From Candidatus Marinacidobacterales bacterium (GTDB lineage: Bacteria > Acidobacteriota > Vicinamibacteria > Marinacidobacterales > DATDRI01), in the NCBI GenBank assembly GCA_965226495.1, contig OZ245365.1, positions 4,288,001 to 4,352,000 of the forward strand: a stretch of 64,000 bases of DNA. Reading direction: 5' to 3'. Of this stretch, positions 6,482 to 34,904 are shown piece by piece. Numbering within the stretch: position 1 is the stretch's first letter; each line of letters starts with the position of its first letter. A program made the translations under genes and the position numbers. Below the pieces are notes generated by a model, which worked only from the letters and a program-made list of their open reading frames with translations, had not been told where the DNA came from and ran no database searches.

Positions 6482-6894
6482 GACACTCCCGGGGCGCCGA
6501 CTTATCGATCACCAGGTTCGGAGGCATGCTGGTCCCGGAACCTCCATACTGGCAAAGGGGGCTGCGGCGTTAGGACGCGTCGCGTGTCCGACGCCAGCTC
6601 CCTTCGGCCCCCCCCAACCCTTCCTCGAACTAGTGGAGTGTGGTGGCCTGCGATGCGGCAGCGAAACAAACTCGCAAAAACACTTGACAGGTTTTGCCAG
6701 GCCATTTTGGAAAACGACTAGCCACTAACGTAGATACCTTCCGGAAACCGGAAGCTCCCCTCTCCCGTCCTGTCTCAATGATTGACTTCTTTCTTTTGTC
6801 TCTACGCGTTTGCTTCCGTCTGACGCCGGATGAGACCGCATAAATACTCGTTGCTATATTGTGAGAAGGACTATCGAAAGAGGGGGCAACGGCC

Positions 6895-29666: not shown

Positions 29667-29922
29667 GGCTTCCTTCCTTTTTTCCCTCTCCCCTTGTGGG
29701 ATAGGAGGGCGTCAAGGAATGCCGTGCTGCTATCAACGACGTCAGACCTTTATACCCTCTCCCCATTTGGGGAGAGGGTAGGGTGAGGGGCTCTGATGTC
29801 TCTCGACCCCGGCACCAAGCTGGGTCCAACAATTCTTAGTTTGACGAGGCCCGTGTGTGAACTTGCCTCGTCGCTCGATCTCCCCCGCTCCCCGTTTACG
29901 GGGAGAGGGATGGGGTGAGGGG
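29667..29922. repeat. Cluster of CCCTCTCCC...GGGAGAGGG..GGGTGAGGG palindromic REP-like units
   Basis: Units at about 29683, 29755-29790 and 29882-29922; same family as 49793-49892, including the shared ggcttccttcc flank. Confidence 0.75.
29796..29827 (+). pseudogene. 5' stub of a kinase gene (MSLDPGTKLGP)
   Basis: atgtctctcgaccccggcaccaagctgggtcc matches the start of the kinase at 32430 (atgtcactcgaccccggcactaagctgggtcc). Confidence 0.7.
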
Positions 29923-29946
29923 CCACTCCTCGGCCATGGAAAGCAA

Positions 29947-32367
29947 ATGTTAGAAGCAGGAGCACGACTCGGCTCTTACGAAATTGTGGCGAGCATTGGT
30001 GCCGGCGGAATGGGAGAGGTCTATCGAGCTAAGGACCTCAAGCTCGGCCGGGATGTGGCCATCAAAATCCTGCGAGAGGATCTTGCCTTGGATCCGGAAC
30101 GCTTGAGGCGTTTCGAGCAAGAAGCCCACGCAGCTTCCTCTCTCAACCACCCGAACATCGTCACTATTCACAACATCGGCGAACATGAAGGTACTCGCTA
30201 CATCGCCATGGAGTACGTAGAGGGAAAGACGCTCCGAGAGATGCTTGGCGGAGAGCCGTTGCCGAACAAGAAGCTTCTCCAACTCTCCACGCAGATTGCG
30301 GATGGACTTGCCAAAGCGCACTCCGCGGGAATCGTTCACCGGGACCTGAAGCCAGAGAACCTGATGGTTACCAACGACGGGTTCGTCAAGATTCTAGACT
30401 TTGGAATCGCCAAGCTAACGCCTCAGCTCTACGAAGCCAGCTCTGAGGAGAGTTCTTCGTCAAGGGTTGGGGGCACACTGGCGAAGGAGGGTACGACTCC
30501 GGGTGTGGTGATGGGAACGGTTGGTTACATGTCTCCAGAACAGGCGAAGGGGCTGCCATCGGACTATCGCTCCGACCAGTTCGCTCTAGGTACCGTCCTC
30601 TACGAGATGGCGGCAGGAAAGCGGGCCTTTCGCCACGACACACAGGGAGAGACGCAGGTCGCGATCATCCGGGACGAGCCAGAAGCCCTCACCCAACTCA
30701 ACCCCAACCTTCCTGCGCCATTTCGCTGGATTGTCGAGCGGTGCCTAGCAAAGGCTCCAGAAGAGCGGTACACGTCGACCCAAGACCTTGCCCGCGAATT
30801 ACAGAACGTACGAGACCATCTCGACGAAGTTTCCTCGTCGACAGTCGTCGCTAAACCTCAACTTGGCCACCGACGGGCGGGCATACTTTCCTTAGCCGCG
30901 TTGCCCATCATTGTGCTCGCCCTGGTTGTCGGATTGAACGTCGGCGACTTACGGGAGCGGCTGTTCGGTGGAGCAACTCCAGGACGCATTGAATCCATCG
31001 CTGTTCTGCCACTGGAGAATCTCTCAGGCGACCCCGAGCAGGAGTACTTTGCCGATGGGATGACCGAAGCGCTAATTGCGGACTTGGCCAAGGTGGGCTC
31101 CATCAAGGTGATCTCACGGACCTCGGTGATGCAGTACAAAGGAGTCAAGAAGCCGCTCCCAGAAATCGCTCGAGAGTTGGGTGTGGATGCGGTTGTCGAA
31201 GGGTCGGTTATGCGTTCCGGGGATCGCGTACGGATCACCGCCCAGCTCGTCGATGCGGCGACCGACCAACATCTCTGGACCGAGAGCTACGAACGGGACC
31301 TGCGCGACGTCCTCGCCTTGCAAAGTGAGGTGGCACGGGCCATCGCGAAAGAGATCAACATCAAGCTAACCCCTCAGGAGGAGTCACTCCTGACCAGCGC
31401 TCGTCCCGTCGACCCCGAGGCCCATGAGGCCTATCTCAGGGGACGGTATTCCTGGAACAAGCACGGTGAAGAAGACCAGAAGAAAGCCGTCGACTATTTC
31501 GAGCGGGCGATCGACCAAGACCCCGACTACGCTATTGCCTACGCGGGACTGGCCGACGCCTATGCCATGCTTGGATTTTGGGGAATTACTCCTCCTGCGG
31601 AGGCGATACCGAAAGCGCGCGCCGCGGCGCAGAAAGCGCTCGAGCTGGACGAGACGCTTGCCGAAGCGCACACCCCGTTGGGACTCATCAAATTCTATTT
31701 CGACTGGGAATGGTCGGCTGCCCAGGCAGAGTTTCGGCGTGCCCTCGAGCTCAACCCGAGCTATGCGCTCGCTCATGACTGGTACGCCGTGTATCTGGCC
31801 GCGGTGGGGCGACTCGATGAAGCCCTGGCCGAAATAAAGCGCGCCAAGGAGCTCGACCCGCTGTCCCTCAGGATCAACGCAGCTCTGGCGTTTCAATTCC
31901 GGCTCTCACGCCAGTACGACCGATCCATCGAACAAGCGCAGAAGGTGCTCGAGATGGATCCAAGCTATTGGCTGGCGCAATTGACCCTCGCGACCGCTTA
32001 CCGCGCGAAGGGGCTAGATGAGGAAGTAGTTCATGAAGCGTATAGAAAACAGTACGTCCTAGCCGGAGATAGTGAGCGCGTGGAGGCCATGGATCGCGGC
32101 TACGCCGAGTCGGGCCCTCGAGGCGCCGTGTGCGAAGCAGCCGAAGTGTTGGCAGCACGATCCAAACTCAGGTACGTTTCCTCTACCGACATCGCCTTGA
32201 GCTATGTTCACTGCGAGAGGAGCGACGAAGCCTTTTATTGGCTTGAAAAAGCATACGCGGAGCGTGATCCCTTCTTAACCCTTCTTGCCGTTGACCCCGA
32301 TTGGGATCCCATTCGCTCCGATCCCCGTTTCCAAAAGTTGGTGCGGTTGATGAACTTCCCCGAGTAA
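29947..32367 (+). CDS. Ser/Thr protein kinase with TM, TolB_N-like and TPR domains (paralogue 1)
   Basis: GAGGMGEVY, VAIK, HRDLKPEN, DFG, YMSPE; SIAVLPLENLSGDPEQEYFADGMTE; TPR repeats. Confidence 0.95.
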   Translation: MLEAGARLGSYEIVASIGAGGMGEVYRAKDLKLGRDVAIKILREDLALDPERLRRFEQEAHAASSLNHPNIVTIHNIGEHEGTRYIAMEYVEGKTLREMLGGEPLPNKKLLQLSTQIADGLAKAHSAGIVHRDLKPENLMVTNDGFVKILDFGIAKLTPQLYEASSEESSSSRVGGTLAKEGTTPGVVMGTVGYMSPEQAKGLPSDYRSDQFALGTVLYEMAAGKRAFRHDTQGETQVAIIRDEPEALTQLNPNLPAPFRWIVERCLAKAPEERYTSTQDLARELQNVRDHLDEVSSSTVVAKPQLGHRRAGILSLAALPIIVLALVVGLNVGDLRERLFGGATPGRIESIAVLPLENLSGDPEQEYFADGMTEALIADLAKVGSIKVISRTSVMQYKGVKKPLPEIARELGVDAVVEGSVMRSGDRVRITAQLVDAATDQHLWTESYERDLRDVLALQSEVARAIAKEINIKLTPQEESLLTSARPVDPEAHEAYLRGRYSWNKHGEEDQKKAVDYFERAIDQDPDYAIAYAGLADAYAMLGFWGITPPAEAIPKARAAAQKALELDETLAEAHTPLGLIKFYFDWEWSAAQAEFRRALELNPSYALAHDWYAVYLAAVGRLDEALAEIKRAKELDPLSLRINAALAFQFRLSRQYDRSIEQAQKVLEMDPSYWLAQLTLATAYRAKGLDEEVVHEAYRKQYVLAGDSERVEAMDRGYAESGPRGAVCEAAEVLAARSKLRYVSSTDIALSYVHCERSDEAFYWLEKAYAERDPFLTLLAVDPDWDPIRSDPRFQKLVRLMNFPE

Positions 32368-32429: not shown

Positions 32430-34904
32430 ATGTCACTCGACCCCGGCACTAAGCTGGGTCCCTATGAAATCCAGGCACCCATCGGCGCGGGCGGCATGGG
32501 CGAAGTCTACAAAGCGAAGGACCTCAAGCTCGGCCGGGACGTAGCCATCAAAATCCTGCGCGGGGATCTTGCCGGGGATCCCGAACGCTTGAGGCGCTTC
32601 GAGCAAGAGGCCCGCGCGGCTTCATCTCTCAACCACCCGAACATCGTCACCATTCACGACATCCGCCTTCGCAAGGCTTCCGCCTCCGCGCAGCTTCGGC
32701 GGGACAAGTCGGCGGGACAAGTCGGCGAAGAAGGCGATATCGACTACATCGTCATGGAGTACGTCGAGGGCACGACACTCCGAGACATGCTTGGCGGAGA
32801 GCCGTTGCCGAACAAGAAGCTTCTCCAACTCTCCACGCAGATTGCGGATGGACTTGCCAAAGCGCACTCCGCGGGAATCGTTCACCGGGACCTGAAGCCA
32901 GAGAACCTGATGGTTACCAACGACGGGTTCGTCAAGATTCTAGACTTTGGAATCGCCAAGCTAACGCCTCAGCTCTACGAAGCCAGCTCTGAGGAGAGTT
33001 CTTCGTCAAGGGTTGGGGGCACACTGGCGAAGGAGGGCACGACTCCGGGTGTGGTGATGGGAACGGTTGGTTACATGTCTCCAGAACAGGCGAAGGGGCT
33101 GCCATCGGACTATCGCTCCGACCAGTTCGCTCTAGGTACCGTCCTCTACGAGATGGCGGCAGGAAAGCGGGCCTTTCGCCACGACACACAGGGAGAGACG
33201 CAGGTCGCGATCATCCGGGACGAGCCAGAAGCCCTCACCCAACTCAACCCCAACCTTCCTGCGCCATTTCGCTGGATTGTCGAGCGGTGCCTAGCAAAGG
33301 CTCCAGAAGAGCGGTACACGTCGACCCAAGACCTTGCCCGCGAATTACAGAACGTACGAGACCATCTCGGCGAAGTTTCCTCGTCGACAGCCATCGCTAA
33401 ACCTCAACTTGGCCACCGACGGGCGGGCATACTTTCCTTAGCCGCGTTGCCCATCATTGTGCTCGCCCTGGTTGTCGGATTGAACGTCGGCGGCTTGCGG
33501 GAGCGGCTGTTCGGTGGAGCAACTCCAGGACGCATTGAATCCATCGCTGTTCTGCCACTGGAGAATCTCTCAGGCGACCCCGAGCAGGAGTACTTTGCCG
33601 ATGGGATGACCGAAGCGCTAATTGCGGACTTGGCCAAGGTGGGCTCCATCAAGGTGATCTCACGGACCTCGGTGATGCAGTACAAAGGAGTCAAGAAGCC
33701 GCTCCCAGAAATCGCTCGAGAGTTGGGTGTGGATGCGGTTGTCGAAGGGTCGGTCATGCGTTCCGGGGATCGCGTACGGATCACCGCCCAGCTCATCGAT
33801 GCGGCGACCGACCAACATCTCTGGACCGAGAGCTACGAACGGGACCTGCGCGACATCCTCGCCTTGCAAAGTGAGGTGGCACGGGCCATCGCGAAAGAGA
33901 TCAAAATCACGCTGACGCCTCAGGAGGAGGCACTCCTGGCCAGCGCTCGCCCCGTCGACCCCGAGGCCCATGAGGCCTATCTCAGGGGACGGTATTCCTG
34001 GAACAAAGAAGATGTGAAGACAGCCGTCGACTATTTCGAGCGGGCGATCGACCAAGACCCCGACTACGCTATTGCCTACGCGGGACTGGCCGACGCCTAT
34101 GCCATACTTGGGCTTTGGGGAATTACTCCCCCTGCGGAGGCGATACCGAAAGCGCGCGCCGCGGTGCAGAAAGCGCTGGAGCTGGACGATACGCTCGCCG
34201 AAGCGCACACCCCGTTGGGACTCATCAAATTCTATTTCGACTGGGAATGGTCGGCTGCCCAGGCAGAGTTCCGGCGGGCCCTCGAGCTCAACCCGAGCTA
34301 TGCCCTCGCTCATGACTTTTACGCCGTGTATCTGGCTGCGGTGGGGCGACTCGATGAAGCCCTGGCCGAAATAAAGCGCGCGAAGGAGCTCGACCCGCTA
34401 TCCCTTAGGATGGACGTGGCTCTGGCGTTTCAATTCCGGCTCTCACGCCAGTACGACCGATCCATCGAAGAAGCGCAGAAGGTGCTCGAGATGGATCCGA
34501 GCTATTGGCTGGCGCAATTGAACCTCGCGACCACTTACCGCGCGAAGGGGCTAGACGAGGAAATAGTTCTTGAAGCGTATAGAAAACAGCACGTGCTAGC
34601 CGGAGACAGCGAGCGTGTGGAGGCCGTGGATCGCGGCTACGCCGAGTCGGGCCCTCGAGGAGCCTACCTCGAAGTGGCTGAAATGTTGGTAGCACGATCC
34701 AAGCTCAGGTACGTTTCCTCTATCGACACCGCCTTAGCCTATGTTTACTGCGAGAGGAAGGACGAAGCCTTTTTTTGGCTGGAAAAAGCATACGCGGAGG
34801 GGAATCCCTTCTTAGCCCTTCTTGCCGTAGAGACCGATTGGGATCCCATTCGTTCCGACCCCCGCTTTCAAGATTTGGTGCGGCGCATGAACTTCCCCGA
34901 CTAG
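32430..34904 (+). CDS. Ser/Thr protein kinase with TM, TolB_N-like and TPR domains (paralogue 2; 20-aa insert)
   Basis: Same motifs as paralogue 1, nearly identical in the middle; extra residues RLRKASASAQLRRDKSAGQV after HDI. Confidence 0.95.
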   Translation: MSLDPGTKLGPYEIQAPIGAGGMGEVYKAKDLKLGRDVAIKILRGDLAGDPERLRRFEQEARAASSLNHPNIVTIHDIRLRKASASAQLRRDKSAGQVGEEGDIDYIVMEYVEGTTLRDMLGGEPLPNKKLLQLSTQIADGLAKAHSAGIVHRDLKPENLMVTNDGFVKILDFGIAKLTPQLYEASSEESSSSRVGGTLAKEGTTPGVVMGTVGYMSPEQAKGLPSDYRSDQFALGTVLYEMAAGKRAFRHDTQGETQVAIIRDEPEALTQLNPNLPAPFRWIVERCLAKAPEERYTSTQDLARELQNVRDHLGEVSSSTAIAKPQLGHRRAGILSLAALPIIVLALVVGLNVGGLRERLFGGATPGRIESIAVLPLENLSGDPEQEYFADGMTEALIADLAKVGSIKVISRTSVMQYKGVKKPLPEIARELGVDAVVEGSVMRSGDRVRITAQLIDAATDQHLWTESYERDLRDILALQSEVARAIAKEIKITLTPQEEALLASARPVDPEAHEAYLRGRYSWNKEDVKTAVDYFERAIDQDPDYAIAYAGLADAYAILGLWGITPPAEAIPKARAAVQKALELDDTLAEAHTPLGLIKFYFDWEWSAAQAEFRRALELNPSYALAHDFYAVYLAAVGRLDEALAEIKRAKELDPLSLRMDVALAFQFRLSRQYDRSIEEAQKVLEMDPSYWLAQLNLATTYRAKGLDEEIVLEAYRKQHVLAGDSERVEAVDRGYAESGPRGAYLEVAEMLVARSKLRYVSSIDTALAYVYCERKDEAFFWLEKAYAEGNPFLALLAVETDWDPIRSDPRFQDLVRRMNFPD
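32663..32722 (+). mobile_element. Two nested 30-bp palindromic mini-elements inserted in frame
   Basis: Outer copy ccgccttcgcaaggctt|cggcgggacaagt is interrupted by inner copy ccgcctccgcgcagcttcggcgggacaagt (32680-32709); absent from paralogue 1. Confidence 0.8.

What the first reader, a model, noticed from the sequence alone, without database searches (positions are those of the whole stretch)
32663..32722. Self-nesting 30-bp palindromic element inserted in frame inside a kinase gene
Seen: paralogue 2 carries 60 extra nt relative to paralogue 1 (HNIGEHEG vs HDI-RLRKASASAQLRRDKSAGQV-GEEG). The insert resolves into two related 30-bp units, CCGCCTYCGC...GCTTCGGCGGGACAAGT, one inside the other. 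Both sit at the same target, T^CGGCG (AT^CGGCGAAG in the gene; CTT^CGGCGGG inside the outer copy). The element therefore carries its own target site, its 5' CCGCC end is complementary to that target, and its length (10 codons, no stop) preserves the reading frame. Known analogues: in-frame Rickettsia palindromic elements, and HUH/RAYT-mobilised REPs. Inference: a sequence-targeted, non-autonomous micro-transposon that adds peptide loops to proteins.
Basis: partly seen in the sequence, partly recalled or inferred. Interest (0 to 1): 0.85.

Follow-up and report, generated by a model that had tools for sequence, protein, structure and literature searches.

The report
Nested 30-base mini-element inside kinase gene
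A kinase gene carries two copies, one inside the other, of a 30-base GC-rich sequence that also turns up almost unchanged in bacteria of many phyla, often in frame inside real genes, so it behaves like a very small mobile element whose means of moving is unknown.

Summary
Paralogue 2 (32430-34904) carries exactly 60 extra bases (32663-32722) relative to paralogue 1, in frame and open in all six frames. Contigs of 4 public runs from 4 studies contain it unchanged. It parses as a 30-nt unit inserted into a second 30-nt unit at GCTT^CGGCGG.

The exact 30-mers are unique in the genome. Their core, CCGCCTYCGC-N2-5-GCTTCGGCGG, is a real repeat: 7 hits here and 0 for the reversed control, and it occurs in 23 of 41 relatives, mostly as about 100-nt inverted doublets after genes.

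In 13 of 20 ORFs scanned with Pfam it lies in frame inside or between domains. Nesting at the same internal position recurs in 4 other genomes.

A related genome (G005) has 7 kinases with a unit at the same codon, un-nested, reverse-nested or multiply nested.

I found no flanking RAYT or IS200 gene, no GTAG tag, low copy numbers, and folds no better than shuffles. Best reading: a sequence-conserved, self-nesting mini insertion element with an unknown mobilising agent. It is a new variant of the REP/RPE kind.

The parts
32663..32679 (+). 5' part (17 nt) of the outer 30-nt unit: the CCGCC arm, TTC, a short loop and GCTT
   Evidence: When the outer unit is read with its 3' part, its core equals CCGCCTTCGC-AAG-GCTTCGGCGG. 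That core occurs as an uninterrupted element at G038:C141:92644 and G038:C381:37122.
32680..32709 (+). Inner 30-nt unit, inserted between GCTT and CGGCGG of the outer unit
   Evidence: It is an exact match to the family core pattern (G000:C1:4320680-4320702). The same nesting position is seen in L149, L191, L194 and L209.
32710..32722 (+). 3' part (13 nt) of the outer unit, identical to the last 13 nt of the inner unit
   Evidence: this 13-mer occurs twice in the genome, and both copies are here.
32430..34904 (+). Host gene, paralogue 2: a Hanks-type Ser/Thr kinase with TolB_N-like and TPR regions (824 aa). The insert codes residues 79-98.
   Evidence: Pfam Pkinase 12-302, E = 7.4e-46. In the AlphaFold2 model the insert falls in the stretch with pLDDT below 50 (83-101), between strands 75-79 and 106-110.
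29857..32367 (+). Paralogue 1, which has the empty site (between 30176 and 30177)
32790..33870 (+). Tract 99-100% identical to paralogue 1, read as gene conversion. It begins about 70 nt downstream of the insert.
   Evidence: In 90-nt windows, 87-90 of 90 positions are identical here. The 5' 360 nt give 52-81 of 90, and the 3' kilobase 76-87 of 90.

Best explanation
The 60 nt are two copies of a roughly 30-nt GC-rich mini insertion element. Its consensus core is CCGCCTYCGC, a 2-5-nt loop, GCTTCGGCGG, and a tail N1-2-CAAG plus one base. One copy sits inside the other.

Shown:
- The unit belongs to a repeat family present in this genome and its order, mostly as inverted doublets after genes.
- The single unit is present, nearly unchanged and in low copy, in bacteria of many phyla.
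- It lies in frame inside genuine genes. All six frames of the consensus and of this insert are open, so any insertion whose length is a multiple of three is readable.
- It recurrently sits inside another unit at GCTT^CGG.
- A unit occupies the same codon of the kinase beta4-beta5 turn in 7 kinases of a related genome, in different nesting states (30, 42, 60 and 108 nt).

Inferred:
- The unit is inserted as a discrete piece after a pyrimidine (usually T), with at most 1 nt duplicated.
- Because it carries such a site in its own 3' arm (and one on the opposite strand of its loop), it nests in itself and lengthens the peptide loop in steps of about 10 residues.
- Only in-frame, stop-free, loop-located copies survive in genes.
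- The agent that moves it acts in trans and is not identified. It is probably not a flanking RAYT.
- In this gene the outer unit may be old, either inherited with a kinase subfamily or spread by gene conversion. The inner unit is a later, separate event.
- The loop is probably neutral for the kinase.
For: - Insert and empty site.
- Real in 4 runs of 4 studies.
- Family above chance: 7 hits against 0 in the control in G000. 23 of 41 relatives have a match, with up to 52 copies and controls of 0-1. With up to 1 mismatch per arm, 15 against 2.
- Doublet architecture.
The 80 loci listed carry titles from Planctomycetota, Bacteroidota, Patescibacteria, Nitrospirota, Elusimicrobia, Armatimonadota, Acidobacteriota, Alpha-, Gamma- and Deltaproteobacteria, Verrucomicrobiota, Spirochaetia, Chloroflexota and Actinomycetota.
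- No shared flanks between phyla beyond the unit itself.
- In-frame genic copies: 13 of 20 ORFs scanned. They include LeuRS, ArgRS, MgsA/RarA, a P-type ATPase, the L7/L12 hinge, an ABC ATPase and a kinase activation loop. A further kinase case is G014 L083.
- Nesting: 5 of 94 units against 4 of 18,800 random positions. In 4 of these 5 cases the inner and outer loops differ.
- Junction: -1 is a pyrimidine in 91 of 93 units, and in 49 of 50 non-redundant contexts against 0.50 expected (p = 4e-14).
- Same kinase site in G005.
- AU test rejects the five G005 carriers as one clade: p = 0.013.
- The insert lies in a low-confidence loop of the model.
Against: - No copy of either exact 30-mer, and no other unit with the GACAAGT tail, exists elsewhere in this genome. 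There is therefore no visible donor and no sign of current activity here.
- Copy numbers are low: 2-11 per genome in five genomes of other phyla. In an even sample of the phylum only 12 of 301 genomes have the core (8 of 26 in the same class, 3 of 274 in other classes, plus G000).
- No empty/filled polymorphism was seen in the 4 runs laid.
- No transposase is linked.
- The units do not fold better than shuffles, so a hairpin-based mechanism has no thermodynamic support.
- The 3' target motif is not general.
- On the N-terminal 105 columns a single origin of all six insert-bearing kinases is not rejected (p-AU = 0.27). The shared kinase site may therefore be one old event plus gene conversion rather than repeated targeting.
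- The AU group was named after the tree had been seen.
- L273 and L014 show repeated half-units and a partial unit. These look like slippage or deletion rather than whole-unit insertion.
Confidence: 0.6

Rival explanations
1. One inherited unit expanded locally. The A-A'-B-B pattern arose by replication slippage or template switching within a single pre-existing unit, that is, by duplication of its halves, with no second insertion event.
For: - The two 13-mers are identical, and both copies in the genome are here.
- No donor with the same tail exists in the genome.
- G005 L273 shows 4 left half-units and 2 right half-units. L014 and L271 show a 12-nt partial unit. Both are patterns typical of slippage or deletion.
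Against: - The two 17-nt 5' parts differ at 4 positions, including all three loop bases, while the 3' 17 nt are identical.
- In L149, L194 and L209 the nested pairs have different loops, and the outer copy is the more decayed one, as expected for separate elements.
- A tandem duplication of a whole unit would give A-B-A-B. That form is seen elsewhere as separate arrays (L163, L196, L201).
Confidence: 0.2
2. One reading: a REP/REPIN mobilised by a RAYT (an IS200-like Y1 HUH transposase) that recognises the hairpin and inserts at TCGGCG.
For: - The unit has the size of a REP (30 nt), and inverted doublets resembling REPINs exist.
- The genome encodes two Y1 proteins that resemble REP-associated tyrosine transposases: NF047646 at 72.2 and 46.7 bits, both below the 80-bit cut-off.
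- Intragenic REPs are on record (PMC3733652, passages read).
Against: - No unit motif lies within 400 bp of either Y1 gene.
- Of 11 Y1 loci in G002, G014, G038, G028 and G032, none is flanked on both sides. The single adjacent unit lies 30 nt outside an IS200 copy whose twin lacks it.
- Homologues of the RAYT-like gene are not found, with this query, in the unit-rich genomes G028, G032, G034 and G038. They are found in 8 of 16 f3 genomes, a family in which only 1 of 16 genomes has the core.
- There is no GTAG or CGTC tag.
- There are 7-15 copies here, not hundreds.
- Near-identity of the unit across phyla is unlike the species-specific REPs.
Confidence: 0.12
3. History rival, compatible with a mobile origin. 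The outer unit was not inserted in this genome. It entered one ancestral kinase, was inherited by paralogue 2 and by the G005 kinases, and was spread or erased among paralogues by gene conversion. Only the inner unit is a lineage-specific event.
For: - The unit sits at the same nucleotide position, with the same reading frame (RLR...GGQV), in G000 paralogue 2 and in 7 G005 kinases.
- All six carriers fall in one 12-row clade (support 90/94), and one origin is not rejected on the N-terminal columns (p-AU = 0.27).
- A conversion tract of about 1.1 kb between the paralogues shows that conversion operates here.
Against: - Paralogue 1 and the G002 homologue L025 lack the insert, and paralogue 2 groups with paralogue 1 (100/100 on the whole domain, 83/87 on the N-terminus).
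- The whole-domain tree needs 3 changes, and the AU test rejects the five G005 carriers as one clade (p = 0.013).
- No carrier was found with that pattern in the other 39 relatives.
Confidence: 0.4
4. The insert is a selected protein feature or a chance low-complexity expansion, unrelated to any DNA repeat.
For: It lies in a tolerant surface loop, and the peptide is rich in Ala, Arg and Ser.
Against: - It matches a 20-base-specified pattern that has 0 hits for the reversed control.
- The same DNA occurs intergenically and in unrelated genes in other reading frames and on both strands.
Confidence: 0.02

Closest known systems
Rickettsia palindromic elements (RPE). Ogata et al. 2002 and Claverie & Ogata 2003 were seen only as citations inside PMC3733652; the rest is recalled.
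   Same: Both are short repeats with dyad symmetry. Both are found in frame inside many unrelated, apparently functional genes as well as between genes. Neither has an associated transposase.
   Different: RPEs are about 100-150 nt (recalled) and confined to Rickettsia. This unit is about 30 nt, is found in record titles of more than 10 phyla, nests in itself at a fixed position, and is only weakly palindromic.
REP / REPIN-RAYT systems, including intragenic GTAG/CGTC REPs (Di Nocera et al. 2013, PMC3733652, passages read; Ton-Hoang et al. 2012, PMC3333891, passages read)
   Same: Both are 20-40-nt GC-rich imperfect palindromes. Both form inverted doublets and lie mostly downstream of genes, with occasional copies inside ORFs. 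[quoted passage not shown] These may be this unit sitting inside a REP, which I did not check against their figures.
   Different: This unit has no GTAG or CGTC tag and no RAYT flanked by units. Copy numbers are 2-52 per genome, not hundreds. The same sequence appears across phyla, whereas REPs are species-specific. E. coli TnpA-REP cuts at C^T, whereas the junction here is Y^CCGCC.
IS200/IS605 family and their non-autonomous derivatives (Quentin et al. 2018, PMC6006769, passages read)
   Same: Insertion occurs next to a short preferred sequence with no or minimal target duplication. The element carries its own target-like site.
   Different: No Y1 gene is linked, there are not two distinct end hairpins, and orientation relative to replication could not be tested because there are too few copies.
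GC clusters of yeast mitochondrial DNA (PMC4478555, seen only in the search listing and abstract start; details recalled)
   Same: Both are tiny GC-rich dyad-symmetric mobile sequences with no coding capacity. They appear in AT-rich genomes and occasionally inside genes. The copies of this unit in AT-rich Patescibacteria genes look similar.
   Different: They occur in organelles of one fungal lineage, have an unrelated sequence, and are not reported across phyla.

Membership tests
REP/REPIN-RAYT | Short (20-40 nt) imperfect palindrome | tested here: inconclusive
   The length fits (29-31 nt in 91 of 93 units). Only 5+2 base pairs are predicted, and the energy is no better than shuffles (z = 0.34 and -0.35).
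REP/REPIN-RAYT | Conserved unpaired GTAG (or CGTC) tetranucleotide at one end | tested here: not met
   The unit ends are CCGCC... and ...(G/A)CAAG(N). GTAG occurs only inside some doublet arms.
REP/REPIN-RAYT | Two units in inverted orientation forming a REPIN-like doublet | tested here: met
   Doublets of about 100 nt are seen in G000, G002, G014, G028 and G038.
REP/REPIN-RAYT | A RAYT gene flanked by the repeat | tested here: not met
   0 of 2 Y1 loci in G000 and 0 of 11 in five relatives are flanked on both sides.
REP/REPIN-RAYT | High copy number (order of 100 or more per genome), species-specific sequence | tested here: not met
   There are 7 exact-core copies in G000, 0-52 in relatives and 2-11 in five genomes of other phyla. 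The same unit occurs across phyla.
Rickettsia palindromic elements | In-frame insertion in functional ORFs | tested here: met
   13 of 20 ORFs scanned have the unit inside or between Pfam domains, as does the window kinase.
Rickettsia palindromic elements | Sequence family of about 100-150 nt restricted to Rickettsia (recalled definition) | tested here: not met
   The unit is 30 nt. None of the 80 listed record titles is a Rickettsia.
IS200/IS605-type non-autonomous element | Insertion 3' of a fixed tetra- or pentanucleotide without target duplication | tested here: inconclusive
   Position -1 is a pyrimidine in 91 of 93 units and -2 is A or T in 69 of 93. At most 1 nt is ambiguous at the one empty/filled pair. 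No fixed 4-5-mer was found.
IS200/IS605-type non-autonomous element | Mobilised in trans by a Y1 transposase | not testable with these tools
   Only presence and adjacency could be tested, and both were negative.
MITE | Terminal inverted repeats of 15-30 bp and a target-site duplication of 2 bp or more | tested here: not met
   The unit is 30 nt in all, its arms are 5 bp, and the duplication is at most 1 nt.
Rfam RNA families | Match to a curated covariance model | tested here: not met
   No family other than tRNA reached its gathering score on the 10 loci with units or doublets that were given.
Hanks-type Ser/Thr protein kinase (host gene) | Pkinase domain with the HRD and DFG motifs | tested here: met
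   PF00069 at 157 bits. HRDLKPEN and DFG are visible.

The most novel reading that the evidence does not exclude
The 30-nt unit is a previously unnamed, pan-bacterial class of mobile DNA, and among the smallest. In this reading it is a sequence-conserved module with no coding capacity and no lineage-specific transposase. It spreads horizontally between phyla, including the small AT-rich genomes of Patescibacteria. It inserts after a pyrimidine, targets its own 3' arm, and so builds nested 'onion' inserts that lengthen protein loops in 10-residue steps. It would be moved either by a widely shared host function or by an undiscovered trans-acting enzyme.
Probability: 0.35. Interest if true: 0.85.

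Novelty: new variant of a known kind. Interest (0 to 1): 0.7.

Why it matters
If the reading is right, a 30-base sequence without any gene of its own has entered essential genes in very distant bacteria, including tRNA synthetases, ribosomal protein L7/L12, RarA and kinases. It can grow protein loops stepwise by nesting in itself.

That would be a simple and general route to indel-type protein evolution. It would also give a natural marker for horizontal DNA flow between phyla.

It poses a concrete question: what moves a 30-mer that carries no transposase and folds only weakly?

For annotation, the unit explains odd Ala/Arg-rich 10-residue inserts (AFAKASADK, RLRQGFGGQ and PPSPRLRRT types) and many spurious small ORFs.

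For this gene alone the effect is probably neutral, because the loop lies on the N-lobe surface.

Tried and rejected
- Exact and fuzzy search for both 30-mers in the genome found only the insert itself at up to 7 mismatches, plus one unrelated 6-mismatch hit. The 10- and 12-mer counts across the insert are not raised.
- RAYT/IS200 link. None was found.
- Rfam (evalue mode) on 10 loci with units found only tRNAs and sub-threshold noise.
- blastn of a 39-nt stretch holding a unit against PLSDB plasmids and INPHARED phages found nothing beyond partial 20-33-nt matches at E of 0.1 or more. IMG/VR gave 13 stretches, two pairs of which are duplicates.
- Hairpin-loop targeting: 4 of 93 units have flanks forming an inverted repeat of 6 bp or more. 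Flank shuffles gave a mean of 0.7 and a maximum of 4. This is too weak to claim as a rule.
- Search for a shared larger 'master' element: an all-against-all blastn of 500-nt flanks found only within-lineage clusters (13 Bradyrhizobium-type rows, tandem arrays and a few pairs).
- Pairs of units 0.7-2.7 kb apart in G000, G042 and G044 enclose no ORF in common, by eye. I did not follow this further.
- RNA evidence: no RNA holder is listed.
- No insert-free allele of paralogue 2 was seen in the 4 runs laid. The 'joints' listed there carry other letters and come from other kinases. Contigs drop rare variants, so this does not show absence.
- Literature: seven searches found no description of this unit. 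They included the unit's DNA words and the peptide words FAKASADK, LRQGFGGQ and SPRLRRT (0 papers). Supplements are closed. Additional file 3 of PMC3733652, which lists REPs inside ORFs, could hold related cases that I could not see.
- In one search my script failed to label L272 as a carrier. The count from that call is superseded. One search used 16 of the 26 rows to save time: the 12-row clade plus 4 outgroups.
- My note 3 gave 9/27 and 3/273 for the phylum sample. The table gives 8 of 26 and 3 of 274.
Full report
THE OBSERVATION. Two tandem genes encode Hanks-type Ser/Thr kinases with TolB_N-like and TPR regions: 29857-32367 and 32430-34904. Pfam gives Pkinase 12-302 with E = 7.4e-46. A DNA alignment shows that paralogue 2 has exactly 60 extra bases after ...CACGACAT, and the gene then resumes with CGGCGAAG. 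The stretch is CCGCCTTCGCAAGGCTTCCGCCTCCGCGCAGCTTCGGCGGGACAAGTCGGCGGGACAAGT (32663-32722). One T is ambiguous at the boundary. The empty site in paralogue 1 lies between 30176 and 30177.

The stretch reads as 17 + 17 + 13 + 13 nt. If 32680-32709 is taken out, the two remaining pieces join into a second 30-mer that differs from the first at 4 positions. All six frames are open. Contigs of four public runs from four studies bridge the insert with no difference, so it is real and fixed in the populations sampled.

IS IT A REPEAT? Neither exact 30-mer occurs elsewhere in the 6.34-Mb genome, even at 7 mismatches. The core CCGCCTYCGC-N2-5-GCTTCGGCGG does occur elsewhere: 7 times against 0 for the reversed control, and 15 against 2 with one mismatch per arm.

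Most genomic copies are parts of intergenic elements of 100-130 nt. These are made of two units in inverted orientation and lie just after stop codons. 23 of 41 relatives have the core (f1 6/7, f2 15/17, f3 1/16; the tally includes the unpublished G007), with up to 52 copies in G014 and 24 in G002.

The flanks show lineage-specific larger repeats built around the doublet. They also show nested forms (L074, L067), tandem single units (L077), and one single unit in frame in a kinase activation loop (L083).

BREADTH. The 80 loci listed come from records titled as Planctomycetota, Bacteroidota (including a Niastella isolate), many Patescibacteria, Nitrospirota, Elusimicrobia, Armatimonadota, Acidobacteriota, Alpha-, Gamma- and Deltaproteobacteria (including more than 10 Bradyrhizobium isolates), Verrucomicrobiota, Spirochaetia, Chloroflexota and Thermoleophilia.

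The unit is 29 nt in 75 of 93 cases. Flanks are unrelated between phyla, so the unit itself is the shared thing.

Copy numbers are low: 2-11 in five such genomes. Within the window's phylum the core is patchy: 8 of 26 same-class genomes and 3 of 274 genomes of other classes. Known plasmids and phages lack it. IMG/VR has 13 stretches.

IN GENES. I chose 20 ORFs by length from the 25 listed. In 13 of them the unit lies in frame inside or between Pfam domains:
- Pyr_redox_2
- LeuRS
- the P-type ATPase hydrolase domain
- Pkinase activation loop
- MgsA/RarA AAA
- TPP_enzyme_C
- Glycos_transf_1
- ArgRS DALR
- the L7/L12 hinge
- LTD
- ABC_tran
- an alpha/beta hydrolase
- a DsbH-like protein

The other 7 have a domain on one side only, or the unit lies near an uncertain start. 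The Ala-rich frame and its reverse (the AFAKASADK and LSAEALAKA types) dominate. This fits selection acting on which insertions survive.

NESTING AND JUNCTIONS. In 5 of 94 units, including the window's, the unit sits between ...GCTT and (N)CGGNGG of another unit. For random positions the figure is 4 of 18,800. The four others are in different genomes, titled Acidobacteriota, Acidobacteriia, Opitutaceae and Planctomycetales. In 4 of the 5 cases the inner and outer loops differ, which argues for separate elements rather than local duplication.

Position -1 is a pyrimidine in 91 of 93 units (T in 62, A in none). In non-redundant contexts it is a pyrimidine in 49 of 50 (p = 4e-14). CGG at +2..+4 is only mildly enriched (5 of 50 against 2.8% expected), and GGCG is not enriched.

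THE KINASE SITE IS SHARED. Aligning kinase domains showed that G005 (same family, another genus) has kinases with a unit at the very same codon, HDI^G(E/K) or HDI^TE. A pattern search found 7 such genes in G005, 1 in G000, and none in the other 39 relatives. Their states differ:
- One plain 30-nt unit (RLRQGYGGQV).
- 42 nt, with a partial reverse unit.
- 60 nt, with a complete reverse-oriented unit in the loop (RLRRLSVEASAKAEGFGGQV). On the other strand this is an insertion at CCTT^(C)GGCG.
- 108 nt, with repeated half-units, in a frameshifted gene.
- A gene fragment.

Paralogues 1 and 2 are 99-100% identical over about 1.1 kb starting 70 nt after the insert, but only 58-90% identical before it. 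This indicates gene conversion, so the overall 92% identity overstates how recently they diverged.

Whole-domain trees need 3 changes of state. An AU test rejects the five G005 carriers as one clade (p = 0.013), though the group was named after the tree had been seen. On the N-terminal 105 columns one origin of all six carriers is not rejected (p = 0.27). I therefore cannot decide between repeated hits at this codon and one old insertion followed by inheritance and conversion. The different nested contents are separate events under either history.

WHAT MOVES IT. Nothing was found. Two Y1 genes in the genome resemble REP-associated transposases below the cut-off. Neither they nor 11 Y1 loci in five relatives are flanked by units on both sides, and homologues do not track unit counts.

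There is no GTAG or CGTC tag and no Rfam family. The units do not fold better than shuffles.

Published work describes REPs inside ORFs and RPEs in frame (PMC3733652, passages). It also describes Bradyrhizobium REPs with large GCGG/CCGC loops, which may be this unit. I found no description of the unit itself.

EFFECT ON THE PROTEIN. In an AlphaFold2 model (14-row alignment, mean pLDDT 77.7) residues 83-101 have pLDDT below 50. They lie between strands 75-79 and 106-110, the beta4-beta5 turn of the N-lobe. The insert (residues 79-98) is thus a surface loop and is probably tolerated.

VERDICT. The interpretation as a self-nesting, in-frame mini insertion element is supported in its anatomy and by independent cases elsewhere. 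The RAYT mechanism and the general TCGGCG target are not supported. I file it as a new variant of the REP/RPE kind. The unusual points are its 30-nt size, its near-identity across phyla at low copy number, and its fixed self-nesting site.

Noticed in passing
window 32790-33870 (and the matching part of 29857-32367): A tract of about 1.1 kb is 99-100% identical between the two tandem kinase genes, while their 5' 360 nt are only 58-90% identical. This indicates recent gene conversion between paralogues.
   Followed up: partly
G000:C1:5025150-5025690, minus strand (outside the window): Another kinase carries a different GC-rich repeat of about 75 nt at the same beta4-beta5 position. The repeat contains GGGGGTGGGGCCCCGCGG, and similar sequence is seen beside units in G028 and G038. 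Here it is out of frame with a stop, and the gene has a further frameshift in the HRD region, so it is probably a pseudogene.
   Followed up: partly
G000 whole genome: The kinase family is very large. There were 60 matches at E of 1e-40 or better to the kinase domain and 63 HPN-motif hits. Many lie in clusters around 4.43-4.60 Mb.
   Followed up: no
G000:C1:835981, 1134264, 1420839, 1921201, 2951819, 5911809, 6021045 (+) and 1737436, 5553964, 5747316 (-): Ten identical copies of a sequence context of at least 86 nt came up with the GGCGGGACAAG motif search. They are presumably a multi-copy insertion sequence unrelated to the unit.
   Followed up: no
L088, L094, L100, L107-L110 and others (G014): About 20 of the 40 fetched G014 copies share about 60 nt of conserved upstream flank (...gaatccgtggaagg...caacgcag) and a downstream ggaggcgcagag. 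There the doublet is the core of a longer, recently amplified MITE-like repeat.
   Followed up: no
L146, L151, L156, L165, L167, L171, L182, L187-L190, L199, L208: In Bradyrhizobium and other Alphaproteobacteria the unit sits at GGATTGCTT^ inside a larger palindromic repeat (GTCATTGCGAGCG...). This is possibly the 'large GCGG/CCGC loop' GTAG-14 REPs of PMC3733652.
   Followed up: partly
L123 1393-1989 and L128 493-1088 (G038): Two copies of a 597-bp IS200-type element, 95.6% identical, each with a 156-aa Y1 transposase.
   Followed up: no
L074 50-122 and 194-265; L143: Nested doublets lie directly after two tRNA genes. In L143 a unit is followed at once by what looks like a tRNA gene.
   Followed up: no
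L163 about 6518-6620; L196; L201; L170: Tandem head-to-tail arrays of 2-4 units with a period of 31-33 nt. In L163 they lie inside an ORF, reading PPSPKASAGQG three times.
   Followed up: no
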